DNA of 25,557 nt. It comes from Pyrinomonadales bacterium (GTDB taxonomy: Bacteria > Acidobacteriota > Blastocatellia > Pyrinomonadales > Pyrinomonadaceae). The stretch is from the NCBI GenBank assembly GCA_038323125.1, contig JBBQGO010000001.1:1-25557 (forward strand). The letters run 5' to 3'. A program made the translations under genes and the position numbers. Below the pieces are notes generated by a model, which made no database searches, was not told the origin of the DNA, and saw only the letters and a list, made by a program, of their open reading frames with translations. Shown in pieces: positions 5,473 through 14,799 of this stretch (position 1 is its first letter; every line of letters starts with the position of its first letter).

Positions 5473-8043
5473 GTGGCAGTAAATTTACAGAAATTTAAGA
5501 CAGCAAGGGCAGTTTCGAATGGTTCGGGGAAAAGCTGGGTCCCAGGCCTGACGTTTTTAACAGCAGCTCTGATCCTGGCCTTATCAGCCGGTGCTCTCAC
5601 CGGTGTGCTCGCTTCGTACTACCTCAACAACTCGCGCTACACGGTCGAGGTCTCGGCGTTGGCCACCTATAGGCCGCCCCAGGTGACGACCATCTACGCT
5701 GATGACGGCGAGACTATCCTTGCCGAATTTGCCATCGAGAAACGCATTCCGATCAAGATCCAGGACGTGCCGGACAAGGTGACCGACGCTCTGCTCGCCA
5801 TCGAAGATTATCGCTACCGCGACCATATCGGCATCGACCCGTACCGTATAGCCGGCGCTATCGTACGTAATATTACATCGAGCCGAACCGAGGGAGCATC
5901 GACTATCACGCAGCAGCTTGCCAAAAACCTGTTTTTGTATAAAGACCAGACCTATACTCGAAAGATAAATGAATGGGCTGTCGCCTTGCAGATCGAGCGG
6001 TTATACACAAAGGACCAGATCCTGGAGATGTATATGAACTACGTCTTTCTGGGCGCAGGGGCATATGGTTTTGAGGCGGGGTCGCGGACTTACTTTGGTA
6101 AATCTATAAAGGACCTTAGTCTGGAGGAGGCCGCCCTTTTAGCCGCCATCCCGAAGTCGCCGGAATATTCGCCAACCCGAAGCCTCGAAAAAGCCAAAAT
6201 GCGACGCGATATCGTGCTTGATCAGATGACCAAGTACTATCCCGACAAATATTCGCAAGCTGACGTAGATGCCGCAAAGGCGACCCCGATCAACCTTGCC
6301 GGAACGGCGTATTACCAGTCGCAGCCAAAGTCCACGGCTTGGGATTACCCGGTAGAAGAGATCCGCAAGTCCCTCGAAGACAAGTACACGACGCGAGTTG
6401 CACAGGGTGGTTTGAAGGTCTATTCAACCATCAATGTCGAAGCCCAGAAGATCGCTACTCGAACCATTCGCGAACGTCTGCGCGCCTATGACCGAGGCCG
6501 GCGTTGGAGATCGGATTATAAGAACATACTTCTCGATCCGGACGATGTACCGCTCACGGATGAGAAGGAGATAACAAAAACGCTCGAATCCTTCAAACAC
6601 CCGGACTGGTACGGCGACGATTACAAAGAGGGCGAGTACATCAAGGGCCTCGTGATGAAGGCAAATAGCGGAGCCGATGAGGTTGGTGTTCGGTTCGGGC
6701 GATACAGAGCCATCGTGCGTCCGGCCAACATGGGCCGAAGCGGCAAAAAGCCGCGTGAAGAACTTAAGCCCGGATTCCTCGCCGAGTTCCTGATCAAGGA
6801 GGTCGATAAGGACGAACAGACGCTTAGTGTTGAGCTTTCGCAAGTTCCCGAGATCCAGGCTTCAATAGTTTCGATCCATGCGCAGACCGGCGAGATCGTT
6901 TGTATGGTTGGCGGCTATGATTTTCATACCAGCAAGTTCAATAACGCCACGCAGGGGCTTCGGCAGACGGGATCGGCTTATAAGCCGTTTATCTACACCG
7001 CGGCGGTTGAAGATGGGATGACGCCTGATATGACCGTCAGCGGAGCCCCGATACGCCGCGGAGGATGGGCGCCGCACAACTATGACGGTAGTATGAGCCA
7101 CGGTAATGTACCGATGAAGATAGCTCTCGCCAAATCGTATAACATCGCTGCAGTGCACCTGCTCGAACAGGTCGGAATTCAAGCCGGCGGGCAGATGGTG
7201 CGTCGATTTGGTATTACAAACCCAATGGCCCCAAGCCTGCCGTCGGCTCTGGGCGCCAGTGAGGCCTCGCTGCTCGAGATGACGGCCGCGTACTCGGTAT
7301 TTCCAAATAAGGGGATCAGGATGGCCCCGCATTTGATACGCAAGGTCTATAACCGTGACGGCAGCCTGCTTGAGGAATATGACGGCTCGAGTTCCAAGGT
7401 AACCAGCGAATATGTCGCGCTGACGATGGTGCAGATGCTCAGGGGGGTAACCACCGGGGGCGGGACGGCGCCCGGTGCTAACGCTAGCGGACATCAGCTC
7501 GGAGGTAAAACCGGTACTGTAAACGATCACACTGATGTGTGGTTCGTGGGCTTCACGCCATCCTATGCCACCGGCGTGTGGATGGGAAATCCCCTGCGAA
7601 AAGAAAATCTCGGGAGGGGAATGACGGGCGGTGCTGGTGCCTTGCCCTATTTCAACGCGTTTATGATCCCATTTATGAAGGACAAGCCGCGTGAAACCTT
7701 CCCGGACCCGCCGCCGATGCCCTCAGAGGTCAAACGTGCCAGCGAACTCCGAAAGCGTGAGGAACTCGAGAAACTGGAGGAAGCCGACCTAAAGGGTCGT
7801 CAGACCGGCATCGCATTCACACCCGGCACCAAGATCGACCCGGATGCACCTATTTCAGGAGGTGCGGGTGACGAGCCGGGACAATCAAATCCGCCGCCCG
7901 CTGCGGTCAAGCCCGCGGGCGATCCGCCCGAGAGGCCGCCCGTCGTGAGGCCGCCCGTCGTTATCCAGTCAACTCCCAAGCCGGAACCACAGCCTGAACG
8001 GCCTATCGGCTCGACGCGAAAGGGACGAAAGGGGGACGGATAG
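5473..8043 (+). CDS. mrcA: Class A bifunctional penicillin-binding protein (PBP1A family) with a Pro-rich C-terminal tail
   Basis: GTG start after GGAGGT. Glycosyltransferase motifs EDYRYRDHIGID and GASTITQQLAKN; PBP1A-type insert between the domains; transpeptidase motifs GSAYKPF, SYN, KTGT. Confidence 0.92.
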   Translation: MAVNLQKFKTARAVSNGSGKSWVPGLTFLTAALILALSAGALTGVLASYYLNNSRYTVEVSALATYRPPQVTTIYADDGETILAEFAIEKRIPIKIQDVPDKVTDALLAIEDYRYRDHIGIDPYRIAGAIVRNITSSRTEGASTITQQLAKNLFLYKDQTYTRKINEWAVALQIERLYTKDQILEMYMNYVFLGAGAYGFEAGSRTYFGKSIKDLSLEEAALLAAIPKSPEYSPTRSLEKAKMRRDIVLDQMTKYYPDKYSQADVDAAKATPINLAGTAYYQSQPKSTAWDYPVEEIRKSLEDKYTTRVAQGGLKVYSTINVEAQKIATRTIRERLRAYDRGRRWRSDYKNILLDPDDVPLTDEKEITKTLESFKHPDWYGDDYKEGEYIKGLVMKANSGADEVGVRFGRYRAIVRPANMGRSGKKPREELKPGFLAEFLIKEVDKDEQTLSVELSQVPEIQASIVSIHAQTGEIVCMVGGYDFHTSKFNNATQGLRQTGSAYKPFIYTAAVEDGMTPDMTVSGAPIRRGGWAPHNYDGSMSHGNVPMKIALAKSYNIAAVHLLEQVGIQAGGQMVRRFGITNPMAPSLPSALGASEASLLEMTAAYSVFPNKGIRMAPHLIRKVYNRDGSLLEEYDGSSSKVTSEYVALTMVQMLRGVTTGGGTAPGANASGHQLGGKTGTVNDHTDVWFVGFTPSYATGVWMGNPLRKENLGRGMTGGAGALPYFNAFMIPFMKDKPRETFPDPPPMPSEVKRASELRKREELEKLEEADLKGRQTGIAFTPGTKIDPDAPISGGAGDEPGQSNPPPAAVKPAGDPPERPPVVRPPVVIQSTPKPEPQPERPIGSTRKGRKGDG
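7932..7961 (+). repeat. Perfect in-frame 15-bp tandem duplication (GAGGCCGCCCGTCGT x2, encoding RPPVV-RPPVV)
   Basis: Read directly at 7932-7946 and 7947-7961 in the PBP1A tail. Confidence 0.95.
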
Positions 8044-8045
8044 AA

Positions 8046-8115
8046 AAGGATGAAGGATGAGGGATGAAGGCGGAGGGAGAAAGGATGAGGGATGAAGGAT
8101 GAAGGATGAAGGAGA
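8046..8115 (+). repeat. Left arm: ten tandem heptamers, consensus A(A/G)GGATG
   Basis: Units: AAGGATG AAGGATG AGGGATG AAGGCGG AGGGAGA AAGGATG AGGGATG AAGGATG AAGGATG AAGGAGA. Starts 2 nt after the PBP1A stop codon. Confidence 0.97.
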
Positions 8116-8486
8116 TGTGGGAACTCAAAACAAACCCATTGAACTGAGGTTGAGACTTCGCCAATATTCGCTTAGGATAATCCGCCTTTATGATTCTTTT
8201 CCTAAATCCGGTGCGGTTCACGTGATCACACACCAACTCCTCCGGTCGGGAACGTCACCCGGGGCTCAGTACCGCGAAGCTTGTCGAGCGAAGTCGGATG
8301 CTGATTTCGTCAGCAAAATAGAACGCCTTACAAGAACTGGAGGAAAGCGATTACTGGCTAGATCTTTTGGTGGGGGGTGATTTTTCACACAAAGACAAAC
8401 TCCAACCGCTGATCGATGAAACTAATGAGTTGATCGCGATCTTTGTATCCATCGTCCTTAAAGCCAAAGGGCGAAAGAAAAAATAG
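8099..8486 (+). pseudogene. Four-helix-bundle protein (TIGR02436 / 23S rRNA IVS / Avd-like), frameshifted at about 8324
   Basis: The first frame gives QLLRSGTSPGAQYREACRAKSDADFVSKIE. The +1 frame from 8325 gives ALQELEESDYWLDLL...LIDETNELIAIFVSIVLKAKGRKKK with a stop at 8484-8486, the expected second half of this family. Start is ATG 8099 or GTG 8117. Confidence 0.88.
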
Positions 8487-8496
8487 CTGATGATGA

Positions 8497-8562
8497 CTGC
8501 CTTCATCCTTCATCCTTCATCCTTTCCCCCTCCATCCTTCATCCTTTCGTCCTTTCATCTTT
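8497..8562 (-). repeat. Right arm: about nine CATCCTT-type heptamers, inverted relative to the left arm
   Basis: CTGCCTT CATCCTT CATCCTT CATCCTT TCCCCCTC CATCCTT CATCCTT T CGTCCTT T CATCTTT. The outermost unit overlaps the esterase stop codon. Confidence 0.97.
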
Positions 8563-9295
8563 TCACAAACTCCCCGAGATAGTAGGGCAGCATCTTACGC
8601 CACCAGACCCAGTCGTGGTTGACGTCATGGCCCCACACGTCCAGGCGGTGCGGTATGCCCTTTGAATGCAAAAGGCCCGAGAATTCGCGACTGCGGTCCG
8701 GTGCCTCAAATGAACCCTGTCCCGTTACGACGACGATCGAATCCGCCTGTCTCAGCCGCGGCAGGTGAAAGTCATCATTTAGATGCTTTAGGTACATCGC
8801 AGGGTTATTAAAGTAGACGTTGTCGTCGAAGTACCTTTCGAGATAATTGTAGATATCGTAACTGCCGCTCATTGCGATAGTGCCGCGGAAATTATCGCTG
8901 TGCTTTAAATAAGTATTGGCCGCCAGAAAGGCTCCGAGCGAGGCTCCAGTCGTCAGGGGCTTGGCGTCATCGCCGCATTCGTTACGGATCAACGGCAGAA
9001 CTTCTTCGAGGATGTAGCGGTCATACCGGGCCAGCATCTCGACCTTCCAGGAGGGATGAGATTCCTTGTTCAACAGGCTATAGCGGTTTACCGAGTTGAT
9101 CGAGTAGGCCCTGATCAACCCGGCGTCGATGTAATCCTTGATCGCGTCCACCAGGTAGAAACGCTCATATTCCAAATAGTCGGCCGCAGCCGTCGGAAAC
9201 ATTAGCAGCGGATAGCCGGTATGCCCATATGCCACCAGCGGCATGTCCATTCCCAGATTGTGGCTAAACCACGATGTAATATCTCGTCGCATCAA
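8555..9295 (-). CDS. Putative esterase, alpha/beta hydrolase fold
   Basis: GASLG nucleophile elbow and C-terminal WGHDVNHDW His motif. SD GGAG upstream; start is TTG 9295 or ATG 9292. Confidence 0.85.
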   Translation of the reverse strand: MMRRDITSWFSHNLGMDMPLVAYGHTGYPLLMFPTAAADYLEYERFYLVDAIKDYIDAGLIRAYSINSVNRYSLLNKESHPSWKVEMLARYDRYILEEVLPLIRNECGDDAKPLTTGASLGAFLAANTYLKHSDNFRGTIAMSGSYDIYNYLERYFDDNVYFNNPAMYLKHLNDDFHLPRLRQADSIVVVTGQGSFEAPDRSREFSGLLHSKGIPHRLDVWGHDVNHDWVWWRKMLPYYLGEFVKR

Positions 9296-14721: not shown

Positions 14722-14799
14722 GTCCACAGATAAACACAGATAGTCACAGATGAAGAACATACATAGATCAAAGAATCTTATCTGAGTTCATCCGTGGAC
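14722..14799. repeat. Inverted pair of CACAGAT decamer arrays (REP/MITE-like)
   Basis: GTCCACAGATAAACACAGAT (14722-14741) matches the reverse complement of ATCTGAGTTCATCCGTGGAC (14780-14799) at 17/20. CACAGAT recurs at 14725, 14735 and 14745. Confidence 0.82.

What the first reader, a model, noticed from the sequence alone, without database searches (positions are those of the whole stretch)
8046..8562. Four-helix-bundle gene enclosed by inverted heptamer arrays that pair in register: candidate new cassette
Seen: ten AAGGATG-type units precede the gene and about nine CATCCTT-type units follow it. Both arms carry the same interruption (GGAGGG[A/G]GAAAGGATG), so 8072-8105 pairs with 8500-8533 over 34 bp (32 Watson-Crick, one G.U, one A.C). 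The arms start at the stop codons of the two convergent flanking genes, so the ~517 bp unit sits where a bidirectional terminator is expected. Known: this protein family (TIGR02436/PF05635) was first found in stem-bounded 23S rRNA intervening sequences and is homologous to Avd, the nucleic-acid-binding accessory protein of diversity-generating retroelements. Inference: this is a self-contained unit whose RNA forms a long stem that loops out the ORF and covers its start. It could be an IVS-like excisable RNA, a transposase-free mobile cassette, or an antisense/termination device.
Basis: partly seen in the sequence, partly recalled or inferred. Interest (0 to 1): 0.8.

Follow-up and report, generated by a model that had tools for sequence, protein, structure and literature searches.

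The report
Broken four-helix gene in heptamer hairpin
A small, now frameshifted gene of the "23S rRNA intervening-sequence protein" family sits inside a roughly 70-base-pair hairpin made of mirrored 7-base repeats, exactly between two convergent housekeeping genes. It belongs to a widespread gene-plus-repeat cassette that I could not find described outside ribosomal RNA, and whose repeat word also marks many gene-less hairpins in related genomes.

Summary
Inverted AAGGATG/CATCCTT arrays at 8045-8113 and 8499-8565 fill the whole gap between a PBP1A gene and an esterase gene and enclose a TIGR02436/PF05635 gene.

Gene and arms behave as one heritable unit.
- The nearest homologues, in other Pyrinomonadaceae genera, sit at four other gene junctions with the same (A/G)GGATGA arms.
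- The same protein subfamily with this unit occurs in about a dozen phyla.
- Arms are 87-100% identical where silent codon positions are only 28-56% identical.
- Both same-genus genomes have a plain terminator hairpin at this junction. Two other genera have it filled by 4HB genes of other lineages, one in the opposite orientation.
- The cassette follows a co-directional gene in 80 of 83 loci and starts at that gene's stop codon.

In two complete relatives, 35-50% of gene-less heptamer arrays carry exactly the unit of one of that genome's own four-helix genes, against 5-11% for the other genome's units. This resembles REPIN/RAYT logic.

RNA processing, protein binding and the way it moves are untested. 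The scan has reported this cassette class before on other DNA. Closest in print is the Coxiella/Leptospira 23S IVS.

The parts
5473..8043 (+). Flanking gene (context): class A penicillin-binding protein (PBP1A type). Its native stop TAG is at 8041-8043.
   Evidence: ORF list. Pfam Transgly 202.8 bits and Transpeptidase 101.3 bits. The C-terminus ...KGRKGDG* matches relatives' ...KGKKGDG*.
8020..8044 (+). Outer extension of the 5' side of the stem. It overlaps the last PBP1A codons and pairs with 8531-8555.
   Evidence: Inverted pair I9, 25 nt, 80% complementary. It is part of the stem in the RNA fold.
8045..8113 (+). 5' arm: about ten heptamer units of AAGGATG type, including in-phase variants AAGGCGG and AGGGAGA. 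It carries ATG and TGA in all three frames and holds the gene's start codon (ATG at 8099).
   Evidence: TRF 9.7 copies. Inverted pairs I1, I3 and I7. Stop and ATG counts per frame.
8099..8323 (+). Four-helix-bundle gene, N-terminal part (75 codons, helices 1-2).
   Evidence: TIGR02436 43.7 bits, profile positions 5-58. PF05635 31.5 bits. 73-79% identical to homologues L039-L042.
8324..8324 (+). Frameshift site: one base remains where homologues have a GGN (Gly) codon, so this is a 2-nt deletion.
   Evidence: DNA alignment with five homologous cassettes. Translations in three frames. A Logan contig from public run X1 covers 8093-8448 without a gap.
8325..8486 (+). Four-helix-bundle gene, C-terminal part in the other frame (53 codons plus stop TAG at 8484-8486).
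   Evidence: TIGR02436 22.7 bits, profile positions 61-107. Aligns with homologues through ALQELEES...LIAIFV.
8499..8565 (+). 3' arm: about nine CATCCTT-type units that mirror the 5' arm, including its variant units. The outer units are decayed and hold the esterase stop codon.
   Evidence: TRF 8.5 copies. Inverted pairs. RNA fold.
8555..9295 (-). Flanking gene (context): esterase-family protein, convergent with PBP1A. Its C-terminus has the normal length.
   Evidence: Pfam PF00756. Found in 95 of 101 family genomes. C-termini compared.

Best explanation
This is a decayed copy of a single-gene cassette: a TIGR02436/PF05635 four-helix-bundle (4HB) gene plus two inverted arrays of its own 7-base word. 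It fills the whole space between two convergent genes, where both same-genus genomes have a plain terminator hairpin.

Shown:
- Gene and arms are inherited and relocated together.
- The arm word (A/G)GGATGA is specific to this protein clade and much better conserved than silent codon sites.
- The cassette almost always follows a co-directional gene and begins at that gene's stop codon.
- The word supplies a Shine-Dalgarno-like AGGA, an ATG and a TGA. Because 7 is not a multiple of 3, the array offers these in all three frames on both strands.
- In complete relatives, each 4HB gene shares its word with many gene-less hairpins that also abut stop codons.

Inferred:
- The cassette has no promoter and is transcribed by read-through from PBP1A.
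- The arms form a stem of about 70 bp that hides the start codon. As in the 23S rRNA intervening sequences, this stem is a likely RNase III substrate, so the insert can be cut out of the host transcript and also closes both convergent transcripts.
- The intact protein probably acts on its cognate heptamer repeats, including the gene-less ones, in the way a RAYT gene relates to its REPINs.
- Here the protein is lost and only the hairpin is likely still functional.
- How the cassette moves is unknown.
For: Anatomy and stem.

Broken gene. The same frameshift stands in a Logan contig from public run X1, which may be the sample the window was assembled from.

Own genome: all 7 4HB copies in this genome have inverted heptamer-type arms, each with a different unit, and 5 of the 7 are decayed.

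Gene and arms travel together:
- The window's gene groups at 100/99 support with L040, L041 and L042, which lie at three different junctions. The frameshifted L039, at a fourth junction, was not in the tree but is the best protein hit at 79% identity. All four carry GGATGA arms.
- 88 of 104 homologous loci have an arm-pairing score of 15 or more. 57 of 104 carry GATGA-N2-GATGA on both flanks, against a background of 0.0096 per flank. By record titles these loci come from roughly a dozen phyla.
- Arms are 87-100% identical where third positions of conserved codons are 28-56% identical.

Filled and empty sites:
- G074 and G023 (same genus) have short plain hairpins at this junction. G033, G098 and G071 have gene-less hairpins of related GGATGA-type units there (G071's is GGGCTGA).
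- G072 has the junction filled by another 4HB clade. G091 has it filled in the opposite orientation.
- At the pump-operon junction (membrane-fusion protein gene, then RND transporter gene), G049 is loaded, G082 has a solo GGGATGA hairpin, G043 is truly empty, and other genera have hairpins of other units.

Placement: the upstream gene is co-directional in 80 of 83 loci, the downstream gene in 43 of 78. The arm starts a median -0.5 nt from the upstream stop.

One gene, many hairpins: 61 of 175 (G049) and 110 of 221 (G072) solo arrays match exactly a unit of that genome's own 4HB arms, against 8 and 25 for the other genome's units and 0.5-1.7% for random heptamers. Hairpin edges lie a median 1 nt from a stop codon.

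Precedent: the Coxiella 23S IVS has a 28-bp stem, tandem heptamers before the S23p ORF, RNase III cleavage in the stem and a decaying ORF (PMC4990558).
Against: - There is no RNA evidence at all: no RNA run holds the stretch.
- G.U versus A.C mismatches do not single out the sense RNA (57 against 40, p = 0.10), so the constraint could act on DNA.
- No enzyme, target-site duplication or near-identical second copy was seen, so movement is inferred from distribution only.
- A stem with a 385-nt loop is a poor classical terminator, and the consensus scan found none.
- Several other 4HB clades use units without ATG or TGA, so the start/stop reading of the word is not general.
- Some large solo families have no detected 4HB gene (AAGTGAC and AATCCGC in G072).
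- In the window's own 65%-complete genome the match between solo units and own 4HB units is weak: 8 of 62 against 1 and 5.
- Solo hairpins did not avoid divergent gaps under my crude gene calls.
Confidence: 0.6

Rival explanations
1. Host regulatory module rather than a selfish or mobile cassette. Each 4HB protein is a trans-acting factor for a 'regulon' of cognate heptamer hairpins at gene 3' ends, acting on mRNA stability, termination or translation termination. Its own gene sits in one such hairpin for autoregulation.
For: - One gene shares its unit with many hairpins in G049 and G072.
- Hairpins abut stop codons.
- Arm sequence is under strong constraint.
- Some cassettes stay at one junction across several genera.
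Against: - Pseudogenes are frequent: 5 of 7 copies in this genome, and L039, L049, L059 and L064 in relatives.
- Presence at a given junction is patchy, and hairpin units turn over between genera and even within a genus.
- The same clade occurs in roughly a dozen phyla at 51-66% identity, which suggests horizontal spread.
- Large hairpin families exist without a detected gene.
Confidence: 0.2
2. The arms are resident 'landing pads'. Gene-less heptamer hairpins come first, and the 4HB gene is loaded into one of matching unit by homologous recombination between arms, in either orientation. No dedicated enzyme is needed.
For: - Gene-less hairpins of related GGATGA-type units sit at the same junction in G033, G098 and G071 (G071's unit is GGGCTGA), and at the pump-operon junction in G082 and G057.
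- Both orientations occur at the PBP1A-esterase junction.
- No target duplication and no enzyme were seen.
- Many contigs in the metagenome runs join an AAGGATG arm to a CATCCTT arm across 13-39 nt loops.
Against: - It does not explain how hairpins reach new junctions, or why nearly all cassettes are co-directional with the upstream gene, unless selection is added.
- I have no direct evidence that solo hairpins predate rather than follow the gene.
Confidence: 0.12
3. Coincidence. Heptamer hairpins are simply this family's usual terminators, and an unrelated small gene happens to lie in one.
For: Heptamer arrays are abundant genome-wide: 40 period-7 arrays against 1-8 for periods 5, 6 and 8-12, and 178-223 arrays per 0.8 Mb in relatives.
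Against: - 7 of 7 own copies, 17 of 18 copies in two complete genomes and 88 of 104 homologues are armed.
- The unit follows the protein clade across phyla.
Confidence: 0.04
4. Remnant of a diversity-generating retroelement, with the 4HB gene as its Avd accessory gene.
For: PF05635 is the family that resembles Avd (PMC10053308).
Against: - No RVT_1 match anywhere in the own assembly, which is 65% complete.
- The 385-nt interior holds nothing but the 4HB gene.
- No template/variable repeat pair is present, and both neighbours are housekeeping genes.
Confidence: 0.02

Closest known systems
ORF-bearing intervening sequences (IVS) of 23S rRNA (Coxiella burnetii S23p IVS, Leptospira; PMC4990558)
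   Same: - The same protein family sits in the loop of a long stem formed by complementary termini.
- Tandem heptamers stand directly before the ORF.
- The total size is similar (428 nt there, about 520 nt here).
- The ORF decays while the stem persists.
- It has been proposed to be, or to have been, mobile.
   Different: - This one lies between two protein-coding genes, not in helix 25 or 45 of 23S rRNA.
- Both arms are full heptamer arrays.
- The arm word is clade-specific and shared with many gene-less hairpins.
- RNase III excision is shown for the IVS and not tested here.
   Same: - A usually single-copy gene is flanked by its own cognate hairpin-forming repeat.
- Tens to hundreds of gene-less hairpins of the same sequence family lie in intergenic regions close to gene ends.
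- Each gene clade has its own repeat family.
   Different: - The protein is a small four-helix bundle with no known catalytic motif, not an HUH/Y1 transposase.
- The repeats are tandem heptamer arrays rather than a fixed palindrome.
- The one Y1_Tnp gene in this genome (contig C206) is flanked by ordinary palindromes, not heptamers.
Inverted heptamer arrays in intergenic regions of Xanthomonas (GGGAATC) and heptamer repeats of Nostoc and Geobacter (PMC4692102, PMC2700814)
   Same: Tandem 7-nt repeats, often as convergent pairs able to form stem-loops, enriched between genes and close to stop codons.
   Different: In my term searches of those two papers I found no link to a gene family; they are read there as G-quadruplex formers or regulator sites. 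Here the arrays enclose a gene whose clade predicts the unit.
Avd of diversity-generating retroelements
   Same: Homologous four-helix-bundle fold family. Avd is a nucleic-acid- and RT-binding accessory protein (PMC10053308).
   Different: No reverse transcriptase and no template or variable repeats here.

Membership tests
TIGR02436 / PF05635 four-helix-bundle protein | Profile match above the curated cut-off | tested here: met
   N-terminal part: TIGR02436 43.7 bits against a cut-off of 24, positions 5-58. C-terminal part: 22.7 bits, positions 61-107, in the other frame. PF05635 on the N-terminal part alone scores 31.5 bits against 33.8. The intact homologue L041 scores 81.6 bits.
TIGR02436 / PF05635 four-helix-bundle protein | One uninterrupted reading frame of about 115-130 codons | tested here: not met
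   A 2-nt deletion at 8324 splits the gene into two frames. A Logan contig from public run X1 shows no gap there.
TIGR02436 / PF05635 four-helix-bundle protein | Four-helix-bundle fold | tested here: inconclusive
   A profile of 21 homologues matches solved chain 2rld_A over 115 residues, E = 1.2e-32. No structure was predicted for the broken gene.
23S rRNA intervening sequence (IVS) | Inserted in a 23S rRNA helix (25 or 45) | tested here: not met
   It lies between a PBP1A gene and an esterase gene. No Rfam family matches 7800-8800.
23S rRNA intervening sequence (IVS) | Complementary termini forming a long stem around an S23p-family ORF, with tandem heptamers before the ORF | tested here: met
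   compared with PMC4990558.
23S rRNA intervening sequence (IVS) | Excision from the precursor by RNase III | not testable with these tools
   An RNase III gene is present in the genome, but no RNA data exist for this stretch.
Diversity-generating retroelement | Reverse transcriptase plus template/variable repeat pair next to the Avd-like gene | tested here: not met
   No RVT_1 match in the assembly, which is 65% complete. Both neighbours are housekeeping genes.
REPIN/RAYT-like system | Gene flanked by its cognate repeat, plus a population of gene-less hairpins of the same family in the same genome | tested here: met
   Exact unit matches in solo arrays: G049 61 of 175 and G072 110 of 221 to the genome's own 4HB units, against 8 and 25 to the other genome's units. 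The own genome is weak: 8 of 62.
REPIN/RAYT-like system | The gene encodes an HUH/Y1 tyrosine transposase | tested here: not met
   The gene is a four-helix-bundle protein. The genome's only Y1_Tnp gene is elsewhere and has non-heptamer palindromes.
Insertion sequence / MITE | Terminal inverted repeats with a target-site duplication, and a transposase in cis or in trans | tested here: not met
   The arms abut the neighbours' stop codons with no duplicated flank in the filled versus empty comparisons. The 385-nt interior holds only the 4HB gene.
Intrinsic (bidirectional) terminator | Short G+C-rich stem-loop followed by a T run | tested here: not met
   The consensus scan finds none in 7700-8900. 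Both same-genus genomes do have such hairpins at this junction.

The most novel reading that the evidence does not exclude
Each four-helix-bundle (Avd-like) gene is the usually single-copy 'master' of a genome-wide family of heptamer-repeat hairpins that carry its own 7-base word. The protein reads that word, in RNA or DNA, and maintains, spreads or exploits the hairpins. This would be a REPIN/RAYT-like partnership run by a protein with no known nuclease motif. It would account for the long-noted excess of heptamer repeats in bacterial genomes and for the ORF-bearing rRNA intervening sequences as one special landing site.
Probability: 0.35. Interest if true: 0.9.

Novelty: new variant of a known kind. 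Interest (0 to 1): 0.68.

Why it matters
PF05635/TIGR02436 proteins are very common and have no known function outside diversity-generating retroelements. Heptamer tandem repeats are an unexplained, over-represented feature of many bacterial genomes. The ORF-bearing 23S rRNA intervening sequences have been a puzzle since the early 1990s.

This locus and its relatives tie the three together.
- The protein clade predicts the repeat word across phyla.
- The word is conserved far beyond silent sites.
- In two complete genomes the resident 4HB genes predict a third to a half of all gene-less heptamer arrays.

That turns a vague association into testable questions. Does the protein bind its own word? 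Is the stem cut by RNase III? Does loss of the gene orphan its hairpin family?

Practically, these hairpins sit at the stop codons of a large share of genes in Pyrinomonadaceae. They are therefore likely to shape mRNA 3' ends, and they also break short-read assemblies.

Tried and rejected
1. 'The arms are a resident, orthologous terminator and only the gene was inserted.' This was my reading after seeing gene-less hairpins of related GGATGA-type units at the same junction in G033, G098 and G071. I dropped it as the main reading once homologues at unrelated junctions and in other phyla proved to carry the same arms. It is kept as the 'landing pad' rival.

2. Sequencing or assembly error as the cause of the frameshift. 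A Logan contig from public run X1 covers 8093-8448 with no gap. The break is a 2-nt loss outside any homopolymer.

3. Programmed frameshift. L039 is broken at the same codon, but by 1 nt rather than 2, so the required shifts differ. I read this as independent decay or a local hotspot.

4. RNA-level versus DNA-level selection, judged from G.U versus A.C mismatches in 88 stems. The count was 57 against 40 (p = 0.10), with 114 transversion mismatches that mostly reflect register slips. Inconclusive.

5. Expression evidence. No RNA run holds the stretch. Reads were laid on DNA contigs.

6. A trans-acting enzyme. The one Y1_Tnp gene has its own non-heptamer palindromes, and no reverse transcriptase was found.

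7. Remnants of a 4HB gene in the 29 esterase-adjacent junctions of relatives. None was found at E < 0.07.

8. Rfam gave no match at E <= 1. The consensus terminator scan found nothing.

9. Avoidance of divergent (promoter) gaps by solo hairpins. Not seen with crude ORF calls: 17% of hairpins against 15% of gaps.

10. The own genome as a test of the one-gene-many-hairpins relation. It is too incomplete and fragmented: 8 of 62.

Full report
**1. What is there**

The 511 bases between the stop codon of a class A penicillin-binding protein gene (5473-8043, +) and the stop codon of a convergent esterase gene (8555-9295, -) hold only three things.
- An array of about ten AAGGATG-type heptamers at 8045-8113.
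- A 385-nt interior.
- An array of about nine CATCCTT-type heptamers at 8499-8565.

The two arrays are reverse complements. The best register is 34 nt at 94%, other registers reach 96-100%, and pairing extends outward to 8020-8044 / 8531-8555. As RNA the region folds into a stem of about 70 bp. The energy is -214.4 kcal/mol against -162.7 +/- 6.4 for shuffles, z = -8.1.

No Rfam family matches. No classical terminator is found by the consensus scan.

**2. The gene is broken**

The interior encodes a TIGR02436/PF05635 four-helix-bundle (4HB) protein in two frames.
- Codons 8099-8323 match profile positions 5-58 (43.7 bits).
- Codons 8325-8483 match positions 61-107 (22.7 bits).

Alignment with five homologous cassettes shows that a GGN codon has shrunk to one base at 8324, a 2-nt deletion. 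A Logan contig from public run X1 covers 8093-8448 without a gap. A contig from a second study matches 8079-8245 exactly. The break is therefore real, although X1 may be the sample the window was assembled from.

**3. The same design around every copy**

The genome is a 65%-complete MAG of 433 contigs and has seven PF05635 matches. All seven lie between inverted heptamer-type arrays, each with a different unit: ATTGCGG, AAAAGGT, AGAAGTC and others. Five of the seven are decayed by frameshift, stop codons or truncation.

Period-7 arrays are in clear excess in this genome: 40 against 1-8 for periods 5, 6 and 8-12. They also occur as gene-less hairpins and, once, as direct arrays around what looks by eye like a toxin-antitoxin pair; I did not run that pair against Pfam.

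**4. Gene and arms travel together**

Using the N-terminal part as a query against 100 genomes of the same family (Pyrinomonadaceae by the titles), 70 of 101 genomes have a relative.

The closest relatives are 73-79% identical and lie in four other genera at four other junctions. One lies between a membrane-fusion protein gene and an RND pump gene. Another lies between what look, from their translated ends, like an ECF sigma factor gene and a protein kinase gene; I did not run those two against Pfam. All four carry (A/G)GGATGA arms, and the DNA aligns from arm through gene to arm.

In a maximum-likelihood tree the window's gene groups with three of these intact copies (L040, L041, L042) at 100/99 support. 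It stands apart from a second supported clade (96/93). The fourth, the frameshifted L039, was left out of the tree.

A scan of one genome per species found the same subfamily in Chloroflexota, Planctomycetota, Verrucomicrobiota, Cyanobacteria, several Proteobacteria, Armatimonadota and others, including two isolates.
- 88 of 104 loci have an arm-pairing score of 15 or more.
- 57 of 104 carry GATGA-N2-GATGA on both flanks, against a background of 0.0096 per flank.
- Between homologous cassettes the 5' arms are 87-100% identical, while third positions of conserved codons are 28-56% identical.

So the arm sequence itself is constrained, not only the pairing. A second clade, that of the own copy on C269, is armed in 19 of 20 homologues with AATGG-type units. 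The own ATTGCGG copy shares its unit with its nearest relative in G020, which by its downstream neighbour lies at another junction.

Rows L021, L054 and L158 (G017) and L060 (G032) come from unpublished genomes.

**5. Filled, empty and re-used junctions**

Among 29 relatives' esterase loci, 11 keep PBP1A next to the esterase and none has a 4HB gene there.
- Both same-genus genomes (G074, G023) have a short plain hairpin.
- G033, G098 and G071 have gene-less hairpins of related GGATGA-type units (G071's is GGGCTGA).
- G084, in the same genus as G033, has an AATGGAA-type hairpin.

Cross-checking the places listed shows two further genomes with this junction filled. In G072 it is filled by a gene of the other clade in the same orientation. 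In G091 it is filled by a decayed gene in the opposite orientation, whose nearest relative is neither of the others.

On an esterase tree G072 and G091 are sisters, far from the window's genome. This gives at least two, and probably three, independent fillings of one junction.

At the pump-operon junction the picture repeats.
- G049 is loaded.
- G082 has a solo GGGATGA hairpin.
- G057 has GGGATGA arms with a 95-nt filler.
- G043 has only an 18-nt spacer.
- Other genera have solo heptamer hairpins with seven other units.

I saw no target-site duplication in any filled versus empty comparison.

**6. Placement rule and a reading of the word**

The gene upstream of the cassette is co-directional in 80 of 83 assessable loci. 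The gene downstream is co-directional in only 43 of 78. The best-paired 5' arm starts a median -0.5 nt from the upstream stop codon.

This argues for expression by read-through and for insertion at, or survival only at, gene 3' ends.

The unit GGATGA(A/G) contains an SD-like AGGA, an ATG and an overlapping TGA. Because the period is 7, the window's arms offer ATG and TGA in all three frames on both strands. Homologues begin with M-K/N-D/E residues read from the last units.

I infer that in this clade the array buffers the neighbours' reading frames and couples translation of the 4HB gene to the upstream gene. Units of several other clades lack ATG or TGA, so this is not the general reason for heptamers.

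**7. One gene, many hairpins**

In two complete relatives, all but one of 18 PF05635 genes have inverted heptamer arms, and each gene has its own unit.

In evenly spaced 0.8-Mb samples I found 178 arrays (G049) and 223 arrays (G072) of period 7. Arrays within 900 nt of a 4HB gene were removed before counting.

| Genome | Solo arrays | Exact match to own 4HB units | Exact match to the other genome's units |
|---|---|---|---|
| G049 | 175 | 61 | 8 |
| G072 | 221 | 110 | 25 |

Matches were counted in any rotation and on either strand. Random heptamers match in 0.5-1.7% of cases.

In G072, six of the eight largest solo families have a resident gene with that unit. Two large families do not. Solo hairpin edges lie a median 1 nt from a stop codon. 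The window's own genome is too incomplete to show this well: 8 of 62.

The logic is that of REPINs and their RAYT gene, with a four-helix bundle in place of a transposase. That comparison is from my own knowledge, not from papers read here.

**8. How it most likely works**

Shown: the cassette anatomy, its heritability as a unit, the clade-specific conserved word, the placement rule, the decay of this copy, and the link to solo hairpins.

Inferred:
- Transcription comes from PBP1A.
- A long stem sequesters the start codon and is an RNase III substrate, as in the Coxiella IVS, where cleavage in the middle of a 28-bp stem is demonstrated (PMC4990558). An RNase III gene is present.
- At this convergent junction the stem stands where relatives have a terminator.
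- The intact protein acts on its cognate repeats.

Unknown: the mechanism of relocation. Recombination between matching arms (the 'landing pad' rival) would need no enzyme and would allow both orientations.

**9. Novelty**

Full-text searches for the family names and for heptamer, inverted and four-helix terms found two relevant lines of work: the Coxiella IVS paper, and papers on heptamer arrays in which I found no link to a gene family. None describes this cassette outside rRNA.

The scan itself has reported this class many times on other DNA, including clade-specific words and orphan arms. My results agree with those notes. They add the placement statistics, the comparison of arms with silent sites, the repeated filling of one junction, and the genome-specific match between 4HB units and solo arrays.

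Noticed in passing
L039 (G070:C16), aligned with window 8321-8327: The closest homologue is also frameshifted at the very same codon (GAA GGN|GC), but by 1 nt where the window lost 2 nt. This is either independent decay or a local mutational hotspot.
   Followed up: partly
own genome contig C10:7962-8902: Direct (not inverted) GGAGTGC-type heptamer arrays flank two small ORFs that look by eye like a DUF433 / PIN-like toxin-antitoxin pair; I did not run them against Pfam. Cargo other than 4HB genes may therefore sit between heptamer arrays.
   Followed up: no
own genome contig C206:1700-2341: The only Y1_Tnp (IS200/RAYT-type) gene in the assembly is preceded by nested ordinary palindromes, not heptamers. 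It looks like a separate REP/RAYT-type system.
   Followed up: partly
L210 (G049:C1:1313698-1314530), same gene as L185: One 4HB gene in G049 has arms of about 147 nt, made of about 21 CAAGATT units on each side. These are far longer than the usual 20-40 nt.
   Followed up: no
L028 (G084) and L032 (G033), PBP1A-esterase junction: Two genomes of one genus carry gene-less hairpins of different units (AATGGAA type and GGGATGA type) at the same junction. Each unit is typical of a different 4HB clade. Hairpin replacement is therefore fast.
   Followed up: partly
window 7932-7961: A perfect 15-nt tandem duplication inside the Pro-rich C-terminal tail of PBP1A repeats the peptide RPPVV.
   Followed up: no
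window 8070-8116: Summed contig depth over the AAGGATG array is hundreds to thousands of times that of the flanks in four soil or outdoor metagenome runs. Many contigs join this arm to its complement across 13-39 nt loops, several of them G+C-rich. The word is therefore very common in those communities.
   Followed up: partly
G072 sample loci L243-L252: The largest solo heptamer family in G072 (AGTGACA/CTTGTCA, 34 arrays in 0.8 Mb) has no PF05635 gene with that unit among the seven detected. It is an orphan family, or its gene went undetected.
   Followed up: no
TRF lists a period-10 repeat at 14725-14751. I did not examine it.
   Followed up: no
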